A stretch of DNA of 7,389 nucleotides from the IMG/VR virus record IMGVR_UViG_2671180294_000017; one strand, given 5' to 3'. The DNA comes from a virus (lineage: Duplodnaviria; Heunggongvirae; Uroviricota; Caudoviricetes). Below are positions 1-7,389 of this stretch, piece by piece. The notes below the pieces were generated by a model that was given only the letters and a program-made list of their open reading frames with translations, searched no databases and was not told the origin of the DNA. Within the stretch, counting starts at the first letter, position 1; the number at the start of each line of letters is the position of its first letter. The translations under genes were made by a program, and so were the position numbers.

Positions 1-651
1 TTATGATTCGCACCACCAAACACCNNNNNNNNNNNNNNNNNNNNNNNNNNNNNNNNNNNNNNNNNNNNNNGGCAAATGTCCAGATATGATAAAATCAATA
101 TTTTTATACGAATCAATAAAACTTTGGAAATGACCGTGGAGTAATTTATCATTTAAAGGATAGCTCGCTGGAAAATCCCTTAAAATACTATCAAACTGAT
201 CTCCAAAAATAAGAAGATTGATGTGAAAAGAATTAGGTAAAGTTTCAACTAATGAACGTACCCTCGCAAACGGTGTAAAGTGGAAGTAAGCGTTTAAAAA
301 GTCCACATCTGACTGTCTTTTTTTATCTGAAAATAATGTATTATCGGTTGCACCCTGTATATAAGCCTCATGTTCACTTTTGATTTGATGCAATTTTTCT
401 ACTGTATAAGTGAATGGATCTCTATCAACAAGAATATGATCATTTGCACAAAGCAGGATAAGATTTTCATAAGAATTGTCATTTGCTAACAGGTCATCGC
501 CCCTTGGTCCTTTTGGGCTTTTGGCTATTACATGAGCCATTTGTCCGATGTGAACCTGCTCTTTAAAAAGAGAAGTTCGGCAAATATTACATTGCCCAGC
601 GGATAGTCCATACAATTTTTTTATTGCTGCTGTAGTAATTGCATCACTCAT
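1..651 (-). CDS. HNH (His-Me finger) nuclease-domain protein, 216 aa; N-terminal HNH motif with an unrecognised C-terminal domain of roughly 130 aa
   Basis: ORF track. Translation carries the HNH arrangement near the N-terminus: CNIC, then HIGQMAHVIAKSPKGPRGDD, then NLILLCANDHILVD (Cys pair, catalytic His, Asn, second Cys/His pair). ATG at 649-651 is preceded on the minus strand by AAGGA 8 nt upstream. TAA stop at 1-3. About 15 codons near the C-terminus lie in the masked run 25-70. Confidence 0.8.
   Translation of the reverse strand: MSDAITTAAIKKLYGLSAGQCNICRTSLFKEQVHIGQMAHVIAKSPKGPRGDDLLANDNSYENLILLCANDHILVDRDPFTYTVEKLHQIKSEHEAYIQGATDNTLFSDKKRQSDVDFLNAYFHFTPFARVRSLVETLPNSFHINLLIFGDQFDSILRDFPASYPLNDKLLHGHFQSFIDSYKNIDFIISGHLXXXXXXXXXXXXXXXXGVWWCES
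25..70. other. Masked/undetermined bases (46 N) inside the 3' part of the HNH gene
   Basis: Run of n in the sequence. Confidence 1.
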
Positions 652-790: not shown

Positions 791-970
791 TCAAGTACTG
801 GTACTATGANNNNNNNNNNNNNNNNNNNNNNNTACTATGATCCAGTTATAGAGAATGATAAGGGTTAGTACAAAACCGAGGGCATTACGCCAGTGGAATG
901 TTACCTTTTCAATCTCTTCTTTATTCGTTTCAATCTGCCCTTCTACATTCGTTTTCTTTACTTCCTGTTC
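791..970 (-). CDS. Possible 3' end of a gene that starts inside the masked block; visible tail is EQEVKKTNVEGQIETNKEEIEKVTFHWRNALGFVLTLIILYNWIIV, acidic then a hydrophobic helix-like segment
   Basis: Hand translation of the minus-strand frame whose codons include 968-970: 46 consecutive sense codons across 833-970 with no stop, long for AT-rich DNA. If the 23-nt mask length is exact, the frame ends at TGA 791-793. No start codon is visible, so the ORF track could not list it. Frame choice across the mask is unverifiable. Confidence 0.25.
   Translation of the reverse strand, partial: EQEVKKTNVEGQIETNKEEIEKVTFHWRNALGFVLTLIILYNWIIVXXXXXXXXHSTST
810..832. other. Masked/undetermined bases (23 N)
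   Basis: Run of n; flanked on both sides by the same octamer tactatga (802-809 and 833-840). Confidence 1.
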
Positions 971-1573
971 NNNNNNNNNNNNNNNNNNNNNNNNNNNNNN
1001 NNNNNNNNNNNNNNNNNNNNNNNNNNNNNNNNNNNNNNNNNNNNNNNNNNNNNNNNNNNNNNNNNNNNNNNNNNNNNNNNNNNNNNNNNNNNNNNNNNNN
1101 NNNNNNNNNNNNNNNNNNNNNNNNNNNNNNNNNNNNNNNNNNNNNNNNNNNNNNNNNNNNNNNNNNNNNNNNNNNNNNNNNNNNNNNNNNNNNNNNNNNN
1201 NNNNNNNNNNNNNNNNNNNNNNNNNNNNNNNNNNNNNNNNNNNNNNNNNNNNNNNNNNNNNNNNNNNNNNNNNNNNNNNNNNNNNNNNNNNNNNNNNNNN
1301 NNNNNNNNNNNNNNNNNNNNNNNNNNNNNNNNNNNNNNNNNNNNNNNNNNNNNNNNNNNNNNNNNNNNNNNNNNNNNNNNNNNNNNNNNNNNNNNNNNNN
1401 NNNNNNNNNNNNNNNNNNNNNNNNNNNNNNNNNNNNNNNNNNNNNNNNNNNNNNNNNNNNNNNNNNNNNNNNNNNNNNNNNNNNNNNNNNNNNNNNNNNN
1501 NNNNNNNNNNNNNNNNNNNNNNNNNNNNNNNNNNNNNNNNNNNNNNNNNNNNNNNNNNNNNNNNNNNNNNNNN
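971..1573. other. Masked/undetermined bases (603 N); content unknown, flanked by coding sequence on both sides
   Basis: Run of n in the sequence. Confidence 1.
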
Positions 1574-2004
1574 TTCTTTGCGGTATCAATTAATCGTTCT
1601 TTACCATTCTTACCCTTCACTACCTTATATCGTTCACTTAAAAGATTCTTTTTCAGTCCTGAAATGTTGCCCTGCTTAGTTAATCTTGTAGATGAAGTAG
1701 GTATAAACTTATCAATTGCCTTTGGCTGTACCAGTACTTGATAAAGGTACTTAGCCTGAATATCTTTAACCATGATGGTCGATGTAACTGAATTTCTCCC
1801 AACCTTTCTATAGAAGAAAAGGATGGAACGTTGAGTAAAGCCCACTGCCCCACGGTCAACGCTATTATTCAAATCACCCTGCATTCTTTGGGATAGTAGC
1901 TTGGAACGTTTAATTATTTCATTCTGGAATTGATTATTTAATCTAACTCCCTGCGTTTGTATATAGTTCCTTATACTACCAATCCCATTTATTCCACTTG
2001 CCAT
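1574..2004 (-). CDS. Visible 5' part (143 codons) of a basic, Lys/Arg-rich hypothetical protein that continues into the masked block; possibly a nucleic-acid-binding protein or the DNA-binding half of a homing endonuclease
   Basis: ORF track entry 958..2004; only 1574..2004 is real sequence. ATG at 2002-2004 with GAGGT about 6 nt upstream. 143 stop-free codons. Translation MASGINGIGSIRNYIQTQGVRLNNQFQNEIIKRSKLLSQRMQ... is strongly basic. The true 3' end is hidden; the track's 958 end merely assumes the frame survives 603 N. Confidence 0.65.
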
Positions 2005-2013
2005 ATATTTACC

Positions 2014-2448
2014 TCAATTCAAGTACTCCAATAGTTCCTGTACTATTCCGAGTAGTCTTTTTTTATCCTTTGCATTTGGTGATCTAATCTTACTCATCAT
2101 TGCCAGATTCAAACATTCCGGTTTAAGCATCTGATGAAGGATCAGTATTGCCTCTACAATCATTACCTCTCGCATAGTTGCGAAGCACCATAGAATCGTT
2201 TTTGAGTACTGTTCACCATTTTCAATTTTGTTTTTAACGACATTGGAACTACTGAGGTACTCACGCCAGCCATTTTCCTTTGAAGTGGGCTTTAGCTTTC
2301 TCGCATCCTTAACCCGCTGATAGATTTGCTTAGCACCGACATAATTAGAACCATCCTCAAACTGAAAGATATAAACGAAACCAGCATATTCACCGGATAA
2401 CATTTCCTCCTCGCTCCAATCATCCGAGTATTTCCATTCACTCATCAT
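2014..2448 (-). CDS. GIY-YIG family nuclease-domain protein, 144 aa (catalytic domain only; homing-endonuclease-like)
   Basis: Translation contains GFVYIF, then after 9 residues YVGAKQIYQRVKDARK (the GIY...YIG pair plus the conserved downstream Arg), and later REVMIVEAILILHQMLKPECLN (the conserved Glu and Asn spacing seen in I-TevI and UvrC-type domains). AGGAA lies 6 nt upstream of the ATG at 2446-2448. TGA stop at 2014-2016. Confidence 0.8.
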   Translation of the reverse strand: MMSEWKYSDDWSEEEMLSGEYAGFVYIFQFEDGSNYVGAKQIYQRVKDARKLKPTSKENGWREYLSSSNVVKNKIENGEQYSKTILWCFATMREVMIVEAILILHQMLKPECLNLAMMSKIRSPNAKDKKRLLGIVQELLEYLN

Positions 2449-2484: not shown

Positions 2485-2934
2485 ATGAGCGATTTAAAAA
2501 CACGATTAAAAGAATATGAAGGTACTAAAGAGTATCAGGCAAATTTGAAGTACTTCAGAAATGGGAAATTCTATCCATATGCTGATAGTTTAGGATGTAG
2601 TACTATTGTATATGGTCACTTAATTCAGGCGGGAGAAGATTTTAGTACTGGCATTACTGAAAGCGAAGCAGACAAGTTACTATCTCGCGATTTAGCCAAA
2701 ACAATTATGCAGGTACAGACATTAGGGTTAAATCTTCCCGATGACTGGAATGATTTTATTATTATCATGACCTTCCAGTTAGGTATTGGCGGGGTGAAGA
2801 AATTCCGTAAGATGTTAGCAGCCCTGAAAGCACATGATTACCTTGAAGCAATTAAACAGGCTAAGTGTTCTCTATGGTACAGGCAGACACCAAACCGTGT
2901 GAATTCCATGATTGCAGTACTTAAAAACAAATAA
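2485..2934 (+). CDS. Phage lysozyme (T4 e-type, glycoside hydrolase family 24), 149 aa; probable endolysin
   Basis: Translation aligns by eye with T4 lysozyme landmarks: LKEYEG (catalytic Glu), ADSLGCSTIVYGHLI (Asp/Thr and the GH motif), ITESEADKLLSRDL, MTFQLGIGGV, and SLWYRQTPNRV (compare T4 SRWYNQTPNR). No signal peptide or N-terminal hydrophobic segment. AGGT about 9 nt upstream of the ATG; TAA stop at 2932-2934. Confidence 0.92.
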   Translation: MSDLKTRLKEYEGTKEYQANLKYFRNGKFYPYADSLGCSTIVYGHLIQAGEDFSTGITESEADKLLSRDLAKTIMQVQTLGLNLPDDWNDFIIIMTFQLGIGGVKKFRKMLAALKAHDYLEAIKQAKCSLWYRQTPNRVNSMIAVLKNK

Positions 2935-2940
2935 AGAAAA

Positions 2941-2974
2941 GGCATAGTACGAATGACATACTATGCCTTTTTTT
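2941..2974. terminator. Bidirectional rho-independent terminator between the convergent lysozyme gene and the small membrane protein gene
   Basis: Perfect 9-bp stem ggcatagta (2941-2949) / tactatgcc (2959-2967) with a 9-nt loop, followed by TTTTTTT (2968-2974) on the plus strand. The A-rich stretch aaacaaataaagaaaa (2925-2940) gives a U-tract for the minus-strand transcript. Confidence 0.75.
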
Positions 2975-3245
2975 ATGGTCGTTGTTTCTGCTGAAGAATT
3001 GCAATAATCCTTTCAATCTTAACATCAAGTTCATGGATTTGTGTTTCCAGTTTACTTAGTGTATCTCTCATCTTATCCTGATCATCCTCAATACGGGAAA
3101 TACTACTTTCCAGTACAGCAATGGTAGTTTCAAGAGTAGCAACGCGAGTTAATAGATCATTCGTATCCTTTGTATTATCTCTAAAGATAGTATAAAGGAA
3201 TACGCATCCAGAAATAACAAGAGCTAAAATAGCACCGATATCCAT
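2973..3245 (-). CDS. Small single-pass membrane protein with a C-terminal coiled-coil, 90 aa; function unknown (candidate lysis-associated or superinfection-exclusion protein)
   Basis: ORF track. Residues 3-21 IGAILALVISGCVFLYTIF form one hydrophobic helix-length segment. The remainder, LLTRVATLETTIAVLESSISRIEDDQDKMRDTLSKLETQIHELDVKIERIIAILQ, is charged with heptad-like hydrophobic spacing. AAGGGA lies 7 nt upstream of the ATG at 3243-3245; TAA stop overlaps the terminator T-tract. Confidence 0.7.
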   Translation of the reverse strand: MDIGAILALVISGCVFLYTIFRDNTKDTNDLLTRVATLETTIAVLESSISRIEDDQDKMRDTLSKLETQIHELDVKIERIIAILQQKQRP

Positions 3246-3256
3246 ACTGAAATCCC

Positions 3257-3304
3257 TTTGTTGTTATTGTTATTGTTATTGTTATTGTTATTGTTATTGT
3301 TTTT
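3257..3304. repeat. Hexanucleotide microsatellite: six perfect tandem GTTATT units (3263-3298) with degenerate flanking units; AATAAC on the minus strand
   Basis: Read directly: ttg ttattg x6 tttttg. It fills the gap between the TAA stop of the 218-aa gene (3308-3310) and the ribosome-binding site and ATG of the 90-aa membrane protein gene. Confidence 0.9.
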
Positions 3305-3307
3305 GTA

Positions 3308-3964
3308 TTAATACCCTGTAAATGTCGCCAATGCTATCTGGATACCATTATTCCCCATTGCCTGGCGGTAGGTTTTCTGGTTCTTTGAAACGTACTGTAG
3401 ACTGAATGAAGTACTGGAATTACGCCTGATAACCAGACCAGAGTACCCAATTACTGTACCATCATCTGATATGTTCCCCGGACATTGTGACCAGCAGAAC
3501 CAGGGATCAGCTACTGGAGACGTTACCGTAATGGCAGTACTGAGATCGGTAGCCGCAGGTGCTGTCAAAAATCCCCTGATACGTGGCATTGTTGCCGCTG
3601 ATGCAGCAGACCAGATTAAAGTACCTTCTTCACTGAACACATCAAGAAAACCAGATGTGGGGGTAGCCGTGTGACTACTTGTCATGAACCTGCCCATGCC
3701 AGGCTGGAACATATAGGCACCAGGGAAACACCATGCCCCGTCTTTCTGTATCTGGAACCAGTACTGTGTTGTGTTCCTGTTAGCTACTACTGATGGCATA
3801 ACGAAACCGAGCGATCCACCATTACCGAAGGCACAGGTAAAGCCTGTGTAGTATCCCGTATCAGTTAGATTTCCCATGGCCTTTACTGCACCCGTCATTA
3901 TCGACTTGTTAGTACTATCTATAGTCAGTGCACCCGCTGAATTATATACCTCGAAACCTGCCAT
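3308..3964 (-). CDS. Hypothetical protein, 218 aa, Gly/Thr/Ser/aromatic-rich, no signal peptide; paralogous at its N-terminus to the upstream 98-aa protein; candidate tail-tip accessory or receptor-binding protein
   Basis: ORF track. Start ATG 3962-3964 lies 1 nt after the stop of the upstream gene. N-terminus MAGFEVYNSAGALTIDSTNKSIMTG matches the 98-aa protein's N-terminus, and a similar motif recurs at residues 105-120 (GFLDVFSEEGTLIWSA). TAA stop at 3308-3310. Confidence 0.75.
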   Translation of the reverse strand: MAGFEVYNSAGALTIDSTNKSIMTGAVKAMGNLTDTGYYTGFTCAFGNGGSLGFVMPSVVANRNTTQYWFQIQKDGAWCFPGAYMFQPGMGRFMTSSHTATPTSGFLDVFSEEGTLIWSAASAATMPRIRGFLTAPAATDLSTAITVTSPVADPWFCWSQCPGNISDDGTVIGYSGLVIRRNSSTSFSLQYVSKNQKTYRQAMGNNGIQIALATFTGY

Positions 3965-3965
3965 C

Positions 3966-4262
3966 TTACGCCGTCCACTTATATACGTTAAAAGTGTAGT
4001 TACCAGCTAACGGTGCATATGTTGGCAAATAAACCGCAGTAAATGACCCATTATTACAAAAGGCTGACCACTCATTAAAGGTATCACTGGCGGGGGCATA
4101 GTGTACAAACCAGCCTGTAGTTTTCATATTTGGTACTGATACAGTATAGGTCTGTGCAGAAGTAGCCTTGACAGTATAAGTACCCATAAAACGTATGTTA
4201 TAATCAGTCAGATCTACTACTAATACACCCGCTGCATTCCAACATTGTAATCCCTGTGCCAT
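3966..4262 (-). CDS. Hypothetical protein, 98 aa, no signal peptide; N-terminal domain paralogous to the 218-aa protein
   Basis: ORF track. AGGAG lies 8 nt upstream of the ATG at 4260-4262 (minus strand reads acaggagtaagagctATG). N-terminus MAQGLQCWNAAGVLVVDLTDYNIRFMG. TAA stop at 3966-3968. Confidence 0.7.
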   Translation of the reverse strand: MAQGLQCWNAAGVLVVDLTDYNIRFMGTYTVKATSAQTYTVSVPNMKTTGWFVHYAPASDTFNEWSAFCNNGSFTAVYLPTYAPLAGNYTFNVYKWTA

Positions 4263-4419
4263 AGCTCTTACTCCTGTAAATCCTTTTCTTCATTCCAATT
4301 GTTTCTTTTCCGCTAATACTGAATGGGTTAGTACTGGTACTATTGAAAGTACGTTCATTAGATTTCATTTATGTATCCTTTTGAAATGAGGTTACAGTTA
4401 ATAATCCCTGAATTATTTA

Positions 4420-7389
<2,970 letters not shown>

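What the first reader, a model, noticed from the sequence alone, without database searches (positions are those of the whole stretch)
3308..4262. Tightly coupled paralogous gene pair immediately downstream of the tail tip protein
The 98-aa and 218-aa proteins share an alignable N-terminal module (MAQGLQCWNAAGVLVVDLTDYNIRFMG versus MA-GFEVYNSAGALTIDSTNKSIMTG). The same G-F-x-V-aromatic...G-x-L motif recurs inside the larger protein at residues 105-120, so it is built from repeated units. The genes are separated by one nucleotide (stop 3966-3968, start 3962-3964). Neither has a signal peptide, and I do not recognise either as a known family. In gpJ-type siphophages this position usually holds receptor-binding, fibre-assembly or exclusion genes, and a shared N-terminal anchor with divergent C-termini is the usual signature of interchangeable receptor-binding modules.
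Basis: partly seen in the sequence, partly recalled or inferred. Interest (0 to 1): 0.6.

Follow-up and report, generated by a model that had tools for sequence, protein, structure and literature searches.

The report
Tail-tip adaptor plus receptor-binding protein pair
The two small genes after the phage's tail-tip (J-like) gene most likely encode a ~100-residue adaptor and a ~220-residue receptor-binding protein that sit together on the tail tip and set which bacterium is infected; this is an uncharacterised member of a module already described in other phages.

Summary
Two real, translationally coupled genes (98 aa at 3966-4262, 218 aa at 3308-3964, minus strand) follow a J-like tail-tip gene. 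They share a ~15-19-residue N-terminal beta-hairpin motif that is significant at profile level only. The motif recurs at residues 105-120 of the larger protein.

Both belong to existing families. The 218-aa protein is Pfam DUF8377 / phrog_4524 and the 98-aa protein is phrog_7961.

The pair is conserved next to gpJ in YncD-dependent T1-like coliphages (IsaakIselin, JohannLBurckhardt, IME347), in HK639-like temperate phages and in the N4-like Acinetobacter phage Presley. T1 (gp32/gp31), Ralstonia phage Dina and Pseudomonas phage DEV (gp55/gp54) have the same layout. In DEV, gp55 is an essential adaptor and gp54 the receptor-binding protein on a J-like trimer.

Verdict: a new member of a known tail-tip adaptor + receptor-binding module. 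They are two subunits of one complex, not interchangeable alternatives. The receptor (YncD-like?) is unproven. One untested idea is a three-hairpin pseudo-trimeric docking crown.

The parts
4420..7389 (-). J-like tail-tip / central fibre protein. The C-terminal 989 codons plus the stop lie in the window; the ORF is open to the window edge and is 1100 aa in relatives.
   Evidence: phrog_31 'central tail fiber J', plus Pfam Phage_Tail_Tip, Phage-tail_3 and fn3. There is no stop codon up to 7389. J is 1100 aa in loci L005-L007.
4423..4629 (-). J C-terminal tip module (last ~69 aa, ending ...[17 protein letters not shown]). Proposed docking platform for the two downstream proteins.
   Evidence: It is 55-71% identical to the J C-termini of the phages that carry the pair, while the rest of J is ~30% identical or unalignable. 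The same ending occurs in DEV gp56, the Presley tail protein, Dina gp45 and My1 pb4.
4263..4419 (-). J-98 spacer. It holds a degenerate post-J stem-loop, a 54-aa overlapping ORF of doubtful reality, and AGGAG (4271-4275) 8 nt upstream of the 98-aa start.
   Evidence: Relatives and T1 have a stable terminator-like stem at this place (-12 to -16 kcal/mol). The window's version is broken (-4.9 kcal/mol).
3966..4262 (-). 98-aa protein: N-terminal hairpin plus an Ig-like beta-sandwich. Proposed adaptor subunit (DEV gp55-like).
4206..4253 (-). Hairpin motif of the 98-aa protein (residues 4-19, GLQCWNAAGVLVVDLT).
   Evidence: Lowest-entropy part of the family. Aligned to the 218-aa N-terminus. Predicted strands 6-8 and 14-17.
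3308..3964 (-). 218-aa protein, DUF8377. Proposed monomeric receptor-binding protein.
3911..3958 (-). First hairpin motif of the 218-aa protein (residues 3-18, GFEVYNSAGALTIDST).
3605..3652 (-). Second, internal hairpin motif of the 218-aa protein (residues 105-120, GFLDVFSEEGTLIWSA).
   Evidence: An HMM of the motif scores this site at 23-28 bits in family members, against at most 1.8 bits for the other ORFs among 344 ORFs of 13 loci.
2973..3245 (-). 90-aa protein with an N-terminal transmembrane segment and a coiled coil. Last gene of the same transcription unit; its role is uncertain (lysis-related or exclusion).
2937..2971 (-). Strong stem-loop terminator closing the J-98-218-90 unit.
   Evidence: 15-pair stem followed by a T run.

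Best explanation
The two genes encode the distal receptor-recognition complex of the tail tip. The J-like protein forms a trimeric central fibre. Its conserved last ~70 residues form a docking platform. One copy of the 98-aa protein (adaptor: N-terminal hairpin plus an Ig-like sandwich) and one copy of the 218-aa DUF8377 protein (the receptor-binding protein, RBP) attach there through their conserved hairpin motifs. The more variable, distal surface of the 218-aa protein then binds an outer-membrane protein of an enterobacterial host, most likely a YncD-like TonB-dependent transporter. The one-nucleotide stop/start junction couples translation so that the two subunits are made in step.

Shown here: gene anatomy, purifying selection, family membership, synteny across distant phages, fold similarity to a solved RBP, and co-conservation with the J tip.

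Inferred by analogy with DEV gp56-gp55-gp54 and with the BASEL RBP loci: virion location, 3:1:1 stoichiometry, which subunit binds the receptor, and receptor identity.
For: (1) Fold. The confident AlphaFold2 model of the 218-aa protein (pLDDT 87.6) has one outstanding PDB match. [quoted passage not shown] That protein is encoded next to gpJ.

(2) Homologues in receptor-typed phages. Full-length homologues (35-37% identity) lie beside gpJ in IsaakIselin (Bas10), JohannLBurckhardt (Bas11) and IME347. These phages depend on YncD (PMC8594841; preprint 10.64898/2026.04.02.716166). The preprint lists a YncD-associated protein family at this locus. Its AlphaFold3 YncD-RBP models have ipTM 0.78-0.83.

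(3) Recurrent design: J-like protein, then ~100 aa, then ~220 aa, with overlapping or abutting stop and start.
- HK639, Cronobacter SG01, Ralstonia Dina.
- N4-like Acinetobacter phage Presley. Its two proteins are true homologues by HMM, E 3e-13 and 4e-25.
- T1 gp32/gp31 and DEV gp55/gp54, 99 and 223 aa.

(4) DEV experiments (PMC12892993).
- gp56, gp55 and gp54 are co-transcribed and each is essential. gp54 is found in virions by mass spectrometry.
- Host-range suppressor mutations map to gp54.

(5) Profile links.
- The window's 98-aa protein hits phrog_7961, phrog_2427 and phrog_4047. DEV gp55 hits phrog_4047, phrog_2427 and phrog_7961.
- T1 gp31 (phrog_425) hits the family of DEV gp54, phrog_3370.

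(6) Co-inheritance of the J tip.
- The last ~70 residues of J are 55-71% identical to J of pair-carrying phages, against ~30% for the rest of J.
- The five high-ranking J-tip loci I opened (SG01, HK639, My1, Dina, Presley) each have an adaptor/RBP-type gene directly downstream.

(7) Conservation. The hairpin segments are the most conserved parts of both families. In DUF8377, conserved columns are enriched in them (p 9e-4).

(8) A metagenomic 313-aa protein (P0179) has an adaptor-like N-terminal domain (phrog_7961 over residues 1-94) continued by ~215 further residues. It sits right after a fibre protein ending ...IKVYDSGGTLRV. This suggests a natural fusion.
Against: - Nothing was measured for this phage: no virion proteomics, no receptor data and no co-fold.
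- Sequence homology of the 218-aa protein to DEV gp54 and to the Oekolampad RBP family (DUF6453) is not detectable (hhalign probability 1-2%). That link rests on fold, synteny, size and a short motif.
- I could not tell which gene the preprint calls the YncD RBP (its 'CDS_0024'). If its numbering equals GenBank's, that would be the neighbouring 110-aa secreted protein rather than DUF8377.
- Identity to YncD-typed homologues is only 35-37%, and family members occur in Klebsiella, Cronobacter, Enterobacter and Acinetobacter phages. The receptor may therefore differ.
- DEV gp55 was only uncertainly detected in virions.
- In T1-like phages such as IsaakIselin the pair lies on the strand opposite to J, so co-transcription with J is not a general rule.
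Confidence: 0.75

Rival explanations
1. First reader's reading. The two proteins are alternative, interchangeable receptor-binding modules. Each docks on J through the same N-terminal anchor, giving the phage two receptor specificities or a swappable cassette.
For: The shared N-terminal motif is real. Both models are beta-sandwich proteins that resemble parts of the Oekolampad RBP. In the DEV AlphaFold3 model gp55 may touch LptD loops 9/11, and a loop-9 deletion gives thermosensitive plating. A receptor contribution from the small subunit is therefore not excluded.
Against: The small and large families always occur together and in the same order. Both DEV counterparts are essential and do not substitute for one another. 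Suppressor mutations fall only in the large subunit. The 98-aa family is uniform in length, 90-108 aa, with no array of divergent C-terminal domains.
Confidence: 0.1
2. The 98-aa protein is a non-structural assembly chaperone, like tail-fibre assembly proteins. It folds or loads the 218-aa RBP onto J and then leaves.
For: It is small, translationally coupled and encoded upstream of the RBP. DEV gp55 was only uncertainly detected in DEV virions.
Against: [quoted passage not shown] The AlphaFold3 model places gp55 stably at the tip (ipTM 0.8). The 98-aa protein carries the same conserved docking-type hairpin as the RBP. An adaptor-like domain is fused in cis in P0179. There are no hits to known chaperone families.
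Confidence: 0.1
3. The pair are host-cell membrane or superinfection-exclusion 'moron' proteins, as database labels for relatives suggest ('outer membrane protein', 'membrane associated protein').
For: Labels on relatives: T1 gp32 and phrog_557 are called 'outer membrane protein'. T1 gp31 and phrog_425 are called 'membrane associated protein'. phrog_1265 is called 'membrane protein, moron'. RBP loci often carry exclusion genes such as Cor and Rtp45.
Against: Neither protein has a signal peptide, lipobox or transmembrane segment. Real exclusion genes at these loci do have them. Oekolampad bas18_0026 has an LSGC lipobox, and IsaakIselin bas10_0024 has a signal peptide. phrog_1265 contains the experimentally solved Oekolampad RBP, so that label is wrong. 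DEV gp54 is a virion protein.
Confidence: 0.03

Closest known systems
Pseudomonas phage DEV receptor-binding fibre: gp56 (J-like trimer), gp55 (adaptor, 99 aa), gp54 (RBP, 223 aa) (PMC12892993)
   Same: Same gene order and sizes, with coupled or overlapping stop and start. The fibre C-terminus is of the same type (...TIKVFDQAGKLRVHIG against ...[16 protein letters not shown]). Both small proteins begin with the same hairpin motif (MSYGFRFYDANGNVTVD against MAQGLQCWNAAGVLVVD) and are linked by PHROG profile cross-hits. Both large proteins carry an N-terminal hairpin and an internal one near residues 100-115.
   Different: DEV is a podovirus (Schitoviridae) with a 429-aa fibre, and its receptor is Pseudomonas LptD. 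No sequence homology is detectable between gp54 (phrog_3370) and the window's DUF8377 protein. The window's phage has a siphovirus-type tail gene set (tail tube, tape measure, 1100-aa J).
BASEL 'bona fide RBP locus' next to gpJ, YncD type (IsaakIselin Bas10, JohannLBurckhardt Bas11, IME347; HK639/Eeyore predicted) (PMC8594841; 10.64898/2026.04.02.716166)
   Same: True homologues of both proteins: 33-45% identity for the large one and 26-42% for the small one over nearly full length. They lie beside gpJ. The J tip is 53-63% identical.
   Different: In the T1-like phages the cassette is inverted relative to J and includes a third gene, a 110-aa secreted protein that is a candidate exclusion factor. 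That gene is absent from the window. The window's phage belongs to a different, undescribed lineage with no megablast match. Its receptor is untested.
Oekolampad RBP, DUF6453 / phrog_1265, PDB 9RPT (PMC12685063)
   Same: Best and only strong structural match. It is encoded next to gpJ and is a monomeric all-beta protein. It begins with a similar hairpin (MGAGILIDYNDGRPRMEIT). Its conserved columns cluster in three hairpin-bearing segments.
   Different: It is a single 321-aa chain with no separate ~100-aa partner. Its neighbour is a lipoprotein exclusion factor. It binds LptD. The sequence families are unrelated by hhalign. The Oekolampad J terminus differs.
Phage T1 gp32 (101 aa) / gp31 (229 aa), and by GenBank note N15 gp22/gp23 and the HK022 homologues
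   Same: J, terminator, ~100 aa, then ~229 aa with overlapping start, then an exclusion gene (cor). The hairpin motifs lie at the same places: MAYGISTWDANGV, MSYGAFIDVNGNPF and the internal GMAIWDASGKLVL.
   Different: Different PHROG families (557 and 425). The receptor is FhuA. No direct sequence homology to the window's proteins was found.
T5 pb5 on the pb4 central fibre
   Same: The concept is the same: a monomeric RBP on a trimeric fibre tip that binds a TonB-dependent transporter (my own knowledge of T5; also mentioned).
   Different: pb5 is a much larger, unrelated protein encoded elsewhere in the genome, with no small adaptor. However, the T5-like phage My1 has a pb4 ending ...IDIYDENNRLRVRIGKL followed directly by a DUF6453-type protein.

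Membership tests
Tail-tip adaptor + RBP module next to a J-like fibre gene (DEV gp55/gp54 type; BASEL RBP locus) | Encoded immediately next to the gpJ-like gene | tested here: met
   The J stop is at 4420-4422 and the 98-aa start at 4262, on the same strand. Relatives L005-L008, L015 and L016 have the same arrangement.
Tail-tip adaptor + RBP module next to a J-like fibre gene (DEV gp55/gp54 type; BASEL RBP locus) | A ~100-aa protein followed by a ~220-aa protein with an overlapping or abutting stop and start | tested here: met
   98 aa and 218 aa with TAA-N-ATG. Compare DEV 99/223 aa, Presley 106/224, Dina 103/218 and T1 101/229.
Tail-tip adaptor + RBP module next to a J-like fibre gene (DEV gp55/gp54 type; BASEL RBP locus) | The small subunit is homologous to the gp55-type adaptor | tested here: met
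   Reciprocal PHROG hits among phrog_7961, 2427 and 4047. The window protein scores 9e-16, 1e-9 and 4e-3. DEV gp55 scores 8e-4, 3.5e-5 and 2e-42. Presley gp59 hits all three. This is remote, profile-level homology only. Direct hhalign against the single DEV gp55 sequence covers 28 N-terminal residues at E 0.007.
Tail-tip adaptor + RBP module next to a J-like fibre gene (DEV gp55/gp54 type; BASEL RBP locus) | The large subunit has the fold of a proven RBP of this locus type | tested here: met
Tail-tip adaptor + RBP module next to a J-like fibre gene (DEV gp55/gp54 type; BASEL RBP locus) | The fibre protein carries the matching C-terminal tip | tested here: met
   The last ~70 aa are 55-71% identical to J of pair carriers, and DEV gp56 has the same ending.
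Tail-tip adaptor + RBP module next to a J-like fibre gene (DEV gp55/gp54 type; BASEL RBP locus) | Both proteins are virion components bound to the fibre tip; the large one binds the receptor | not testable with these tools
   This needs virion mass spectrometry, cryo-EM, binding assays or multimer prediction.
Pfam PF28254 (DUF8377) | Match to the family model over the whole protein | tested here: met
   The model is absent from the local Pfam copy, so there was no hit. PF28254 is precomputed on all 77 homologues, including 97%- and 86%-identical ones, and is named DUF8377. phrog_4524 matches residues 1-217 at 1.6e-54.
YncD-specific RBP family of the 2026 preprint | [quoted passage not shown] | tested here: inconclusive
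   Numerically met against the DUF8377 proteins of Bas10 (35.6%, 100%), Bas11 (36.5%, 100%) and IME347 (37.0%, 100%). It is unresolved whether DUF8377 is the protein the preprint designates.
YncD-specific RBP family of the 2026 preprint | Infection depends on YncD | not testable with these tools
   No host or phage isolate is available.
Pfam PF20051 (DUF6453; LptD-binding RBP of Oekolampad/Rtp) | Sequence match to the family | tested here: not met
   hhalign of DUF8377 against DUF6453 gives probability 1.2%. The PDB sequence search found nothing. The resemblance is one of fold only.
Superinfection-exclusion proteins of RBP loci (Cor, Llp, Rtp45) | Signal peptide or lipobox; small exported protein | tested here: not met
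   The N-termini MAQGLQCWNAAG... and MAGFEVYNSAG... have no hydrophobic h-region and no lipobox Cys. Contrast bas18_0026 and bas10_0024.

The most novel reading that the evidence does not exclude

The idea. Three copies of the hairpin form a pseudo-threefold crown that stacks on the three identical terminal hairpins of the J trimer (...[15 protein letters not shown]). One hairpin comes from the 98-aa adaptor and two from the 218-aa RBP (residues 3-18 and 105-120). The crown would resolve the 3-to-1 symmetry mismatch. Single-chain RBPs of ~315-320 aa (DUF6453, such as the Oekolampad RBP) would carry all three hairpins in one chain. The two-gene form would then be a split version of the same three-repeat protein (98 + 218 = 316 aa), or the single chain a fusion. 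If so, DUF8377, DUF6453, T1 gp31 and DEV gp54 would be one ancient RBP superfamily rather than 'unrelated families'. RBP cassettes could then move between siphoviruses and N4-like podoviruses together with ~70 residues of fibre tip.

Support so far.
- The three segments of the Oekolampad RBP that are invisible in the J-free cryo-EM complex are 1-25, 113-142 and 206-234. By eye, each contains one such motif.
- These three segments hold 28 of the 43 invariant or near-invariant columns of the family (p 7e-9).
- Their positions match the hairpins of the concatenated pair (4, 101, 203).
- The DUF8377 N-terminal profile finds its best DUF6453 match at 215-238 (E 8e-4).
- All three hairpin profiles pick the terminal hairpin of J (E ~0.004 each).
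- My1 combines the window-type J ending with a single-chain DUF6453 protein.

Weak points. All motif matches are short and individually marginal. A combined hairpin HMM does not detect the sites in DUF6453, My1 or DEV gp54. DUF6453 has at least one further similar hairpin at 165-178. No multimer model could be run.
Probability: 0.35. Interest if true: 0.65.

Novelty: new member of a known kind. Interest (0 to 1): 0.45.

Why it matters
These two genes are probably what sets the terminal host receptor of this enterobacterial phage or prophage lineage. The lineage has no close relative in the phage collection or in complete E. coli genomes.

Placing DUF8377 and the ~100-aa family in the adaptor + RBP module gives function-level annotation to two 'unknown function' families. 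Both are common in Enterobacterales prophages. Several misleading database labels ('membrane protein', 'outer membrane protein', 'moron') could also be corrected.

The fold link between DUF8377 and the solved LptD binder, and the co-travelling ~70-residue J tip, suggest a practical rule for engineering. To retarget a phage, one would move the J tip, the adaptor and the RBP together. If the three-hairpin crown idea holds, it would explain how many unrelated-looking monomeric RBPs mount on trimeric fibres in both siphoviruses and podoviruses.

Tried and rejected
- Megablast of 2900-4500 against the phage collection and against 5,426 complete E. coli genomes found nothing. No close reference genome is available.
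- The local Pfam-A and NCBIfam gave no meaningful hit for either protein. DUF1513 and DUF1541 hits were below threshold. The real Pfam family came only from precomputed annotations.
- A sequence search of the PDB with the DUF8377 profile gave only noise (E > 1).
- Pairwise BLASTP of the two proteins was not significant. Only profiles show the shared motif.
- hhalign of DUF8377 or of the 98-aa family against DUF6453 was not significant overall. I therefore do not claim sequence homology.
- A combined hairpin HMM failed to detect the proposed hairpins in the Oekolampad RBP, My1_129 and DEV gp54, and barely scores the T1 gp31 internal site (1.0 bit). A first regular expression for the motif was useless.
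- Hypervariable C-termini and diversifying selection were not found.
- Hits of the 98-aa profile in giant proteins turned out to be generic fn3/Big repeats. P0140 is a frameshifted J fragment.
- I tried to learn which gene the 2026 preprint calls the YncD RBP from its CDS numbering. The answer is ambiguous.
- The J Virol 2023 FhuA paper treats J itself as the RBP, and the T1 cryo-EM paper did not resolve the distal J end. Neither informs on the pair.
I therefore could not check whether the two hairpins of the 218-aa model lie side by side.
- I did not verify that the Foldseek hits in Pseudomonas phages (AM.P2, phCDa) are gp54 orthologues.
Full report
WHAT IS THERE

On the minus strand the window carries one transcription unit.
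- A J-like tail-tip gene runs from 4420 to beyond the window edge. It has no stop up to 7389 and is 1100 aa in relatives.
- A 157-nt spacer follows.
- Then come a 98-aa gene (3966-4262) and a 218-aa gene (3308-3964).
- A 62-nt spacer contains a hexamer repeat.
- A 90-aa gene encodes a protein with a transmembrane segment and a coiled coil (2973-3245).
- A 15-bp-stem terminator (2937-2971) is shared with a convergent lysozyme gene.

The stop of the 98-aa gene (TAA, 3966-3968) and the start of the 218-aa gene (ATG, 3962-3964) are one base apart. AGGAG lies 8 nt before the 98-aa start, and nothing comparable precedes the 218-aa start. Translational coupling is therefore likely (inference). Both ORFs are under purifying selection against relatives at 95%, ~80% and ~60% identity, with dN/dS 0 to 0.12 where measurable. 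They are real genes.

CHECK OF THE OBSERVATION

The two proteins are not significantly similar in a pairwise comparison (E 5.4). Their family profiles, however, align at exactly the N-terminal 19 columns (E 1.5e-5). N-terminal sub-profiles alone give 14 columns at E 9e-9.

The N-terminal profile of the large protein finds its best internal match at residues 107-117 (E 9e-4). That segment is among the most conserved of the family. Like the N-terminus, it is predicted to be a beta-hairpin.

A hidden Markov model of the 16-residue motif scores 14-30 bits on family members and 3-13 bits on non-training adaptor/RBP proteins of other phages. Every other ORF among 344 ORFs from 13 loci scores at most 1.8 bits. 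The motif is therefore real and specific. The large one is Pfam DUF8377 (PF28254) and phrog_4524, and the small one is phrog_7961.

RELATIVES AND CONTEXT

The window is ~95% identical to several 15-17 kb assembly contigs with the same gene order: tail tube, tape measure, distal tail proteins, J, 98, 218, 90, lysozyme and a GIY-YIG endonuclease. More distant relatives are prophages in enterobacterial chromosomes. One example lies next to genes with YliH, GSDH, GST and PBP5-type domains.

DUF8377 proteins occur in many Enterobacterales genomes. In the phage collection, 58 records carry a DUF8377 homologue and 37 a homologue of the small protein, side by side in the loci I opened. These include:
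- T1-like Drexlerviridae: IsaakIselin, JohannLBurckhardt, IME347, NBD2, Henu7, and Klebsiella and Cronobacter phages;
- HK639-like temperate coliphages;
- the N4-like Acinetobacter phage Presley.

IsaakIselin, JohannLBurckhardt and IME347 are experimentally YncD-dependent. The BASEL paper and a 2026 preprint tie receptor specificity of these phages to the variable locus next to gpJ. The preprint's AlphaFold3 YncD-RBP models have ipTM 0.78-0.83.

STRUCTURE

THE DIRECT PRECEDENT

Pseudomonas phage DEV (an N4-like podovirus) has an operon gp56-gp55-gp54 with overlapping stops and starts. gp56 is a gpJ-like trimeric short fibre. gp55 (99 aa) and gp54 (223 aa) are both essential. gp54 is a virion protein and carries the mutations that restore growth on an lptD mutant. 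[quoted passage not shown] The authors call gp55 an adaptor and gp54 the RBP, and they propose that the three genes form a horizontally mobile module.

The window's pair has the same sizes, order and coupling. The small proteins are linked by reciprocal PHROG profile hits. The fibre C-termini are of the same type. Presley, of the same podovirus family as DEV, has unambiguous homologues of both window proteins.

The same design is present in phage T1 itself: J, terminator, gp32 of 101 aa, gp31 of 229 aa, then cor. T1 gp31 is profile-linked to the gp54 family. Ralstonia phage Dina also has it. The T5-like phage My1 has the same fibre ending followed by a single-chain DUF6453 protein.

THE J TIP TRAVELS WITH THE PAIR

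The window's J is only ~30% identical, or unalignable, to other J proteins over most of its length. Its last ~70 residues, however, are 55-71% identical to J of the phages that carry the pair. The high-ranking records without a DUF8377 hit whose loci I opened (My1, Dina) carry the analogous genes directly downstream; DU_PP_V and the other Ralstonia records were not opened.

In the more distant prophage L016 the C-terminal block is the best conserved part of J: 80% against 47-63% in the middle. The large and small proteins there are 61% and 41% identical. Within both families the hairpins are the most conserved segments and the stretches between them the most variable. This is the pattern expected if the J tip and the hairpins form a conserved interface while the rest adapts to receptors.

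MOST LIKELY MECHANISM

The J trimer ends in a conserved tip. One adaptor (98 aa) and one RBP (218 aa) dock there through their hairpins. The distal face of the RBP binds an outer-membrane protein.

By the preprint's own rule (more than 30% identity, more than 99% coverage) the DUF8377 protein would fall in the YncD class. Identity is only 35-37%, though, and I could not confirm which gene of the locus the preprint designates. I therefore give YncD or a YncD-like TonB-dependent transporter about one chance in three.

What is shown and what is inferred are separated in the 'best explanation' field. The idea of two interchangeable modules with hypervariable C-termini is not.

A MORE SPECULATIVE READING

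The motif is also visible at the very end of J ([15 protein letters not shown]). All three hairpin profiles pick that site, each at E ~0.004.

In the Oekolampad RBP, the three segments invisible in the J-free cryo-EM complex are 1-25, 113-142 and 206-234. By eye, each contains one motif-like hairpin. Together they hold 28 of the family's 43 most conserved columns (p 7e-9). Their spacing matches the three hairpins of the concatenated 98 + 218 aa pair.

This suggests a three-hairpin pseudo-trimeric crown that caps the J trimer, made from one chain in DUF6453 and from two chains here. A 313-aa metagenomic protein with an adaptor-like N-terminal domain fits a fused form. The individual matches are short and marginal, and some tests failed. 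This is a hypothesis for multimer modelling, not a finding.

NOVELTY AND SCORE

The thing itself is a new, uncharacterised member of a module already described (BASEL 2021; Oekolampad RBP 2025; DEV 2026). A specialist would not be surprised by the assignment. Three side results are useful and, as far as the papers I read show, not stated there:
- DUF8377 shares the Oekolampad RBP fold;
- the adaptor + RBP pair with a co-travelling J tip spans T1-like, lambdoid, Dina-like and N4-like phages;
- a common hairpin motif marks the probable docking elements.

Interest is 0.45.

Noticed in passing
window 3261-3306: A hexanucleotide microsatellite, (TTGTTA) x 7.7 on the plus strand and (CAATAA)n on the coding strand. 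It lies in the spacer between the 218-aa stop and the 90-aa start. Relatives at 95% identity (L005-L008) have only ~1-2 units, so the array has expanded in this genome. Any effect on expression of the 90-aa gene is unknown.
   Followed up: partly
window 4372-4422 (minus strand), just after the J stop: Relatives L005, L015 and L016 and phage T1 have a stable GC-rich stem plus a U tract immediately after the J stop (-12 to -16 kcal/mol). The stems differ in sequence. This looks like a partial terminator that could lower expression of the pair relative to J. In the window two substitutions break the stem (-4.9 kcal/mol, z -0.4).
   Followed up: partly
window 4204-4368 (minus strand): A 54-aa ORF with a good ribosome-binding site sits between J and the 98-aa gene and overlaps the latter by 59 nt. 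It is conserved at DNA level in L005-L008. The prophage relative L016 has an unrelated 57-aa gene in this slot, and L015 has none. This looks like a variable insertion slot, and whether the ORF is real is uncertain.
   Followed up: partly
window 2973-3245 (minus strand) and 2937-2971: A 90-aa protein with an N-terminal transmembrane segment and a coiled coil closes the tail-tip operon, just before a strong terminator shared with the convergent lysozyme gene. It has weak hits to Rz-like spanin families and DUF2730, and it is conserved in all relatives (72% and 37% identity in L015 and L016). It could be lysis-related, or it could stand in for the exclusion gene found at this position in other phages.
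   Followed up: partly
L001 6729-7061 (IsaakIselin bas10_0024) and L002 6649-6888 (HK639, opposite strand, unannotated): A 110-aa protein with a signal peptide follows the DUF8377 gene in IsaakIselin. It has an unannotated homologue (E 3e-12) on the opposite strand just after HK639 gene 25, the position that cor holds in T1. It is a candidate superinfection-exclusion factor for YncD-type phages. No homologue was found in the window, SG01 or L016.
   Followed up: partly
window 4574-4773 (within J): A local divergence hot spot lies in J just upstream of the conserved tip. It is 82% identical to L005-L007 against 94-99% around it, in a run of ITxAKI-like repeats. This may be a recombination or adaptation site.
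   Followed up: no
window 2014-2448 (minus), 1-651 (minus), 958-2004 (minus); N runs at 25-70, 810-832, 971-1573: The flank holds a SegE-type GIY-YIG homing endonuclease and a 216-aa ORF that I read by eye as HNH-like. A 348-aa ORF is interrupted by a 603-base masked N run. G+C is ~30-45% across the window.
   Followed up: no
L020 (T1) 14608-15602; PHROG families 557, 425, 1265: Database labels such as 'outer membrane protein', 'membrane associated protein' and 'membrane protein / moron' are attached to the tail-tip adaptor and RBP families of T1, N15-like phages and Oekolampad. They appear to be mis-annotations.
   Followed up: partly
L003 (Escherichia phage DCP80, PQ671644.1): This is the closest full-length J relative in the phage collection (30% identity over 96% of the query). 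It belongs to a 141-kb phage filed under Straboviridae/Tevenvirinae, which looks inconsistent with a J-like central fibre. I did not check whether it has an adaptor/RBP pair.
   Followed up: no
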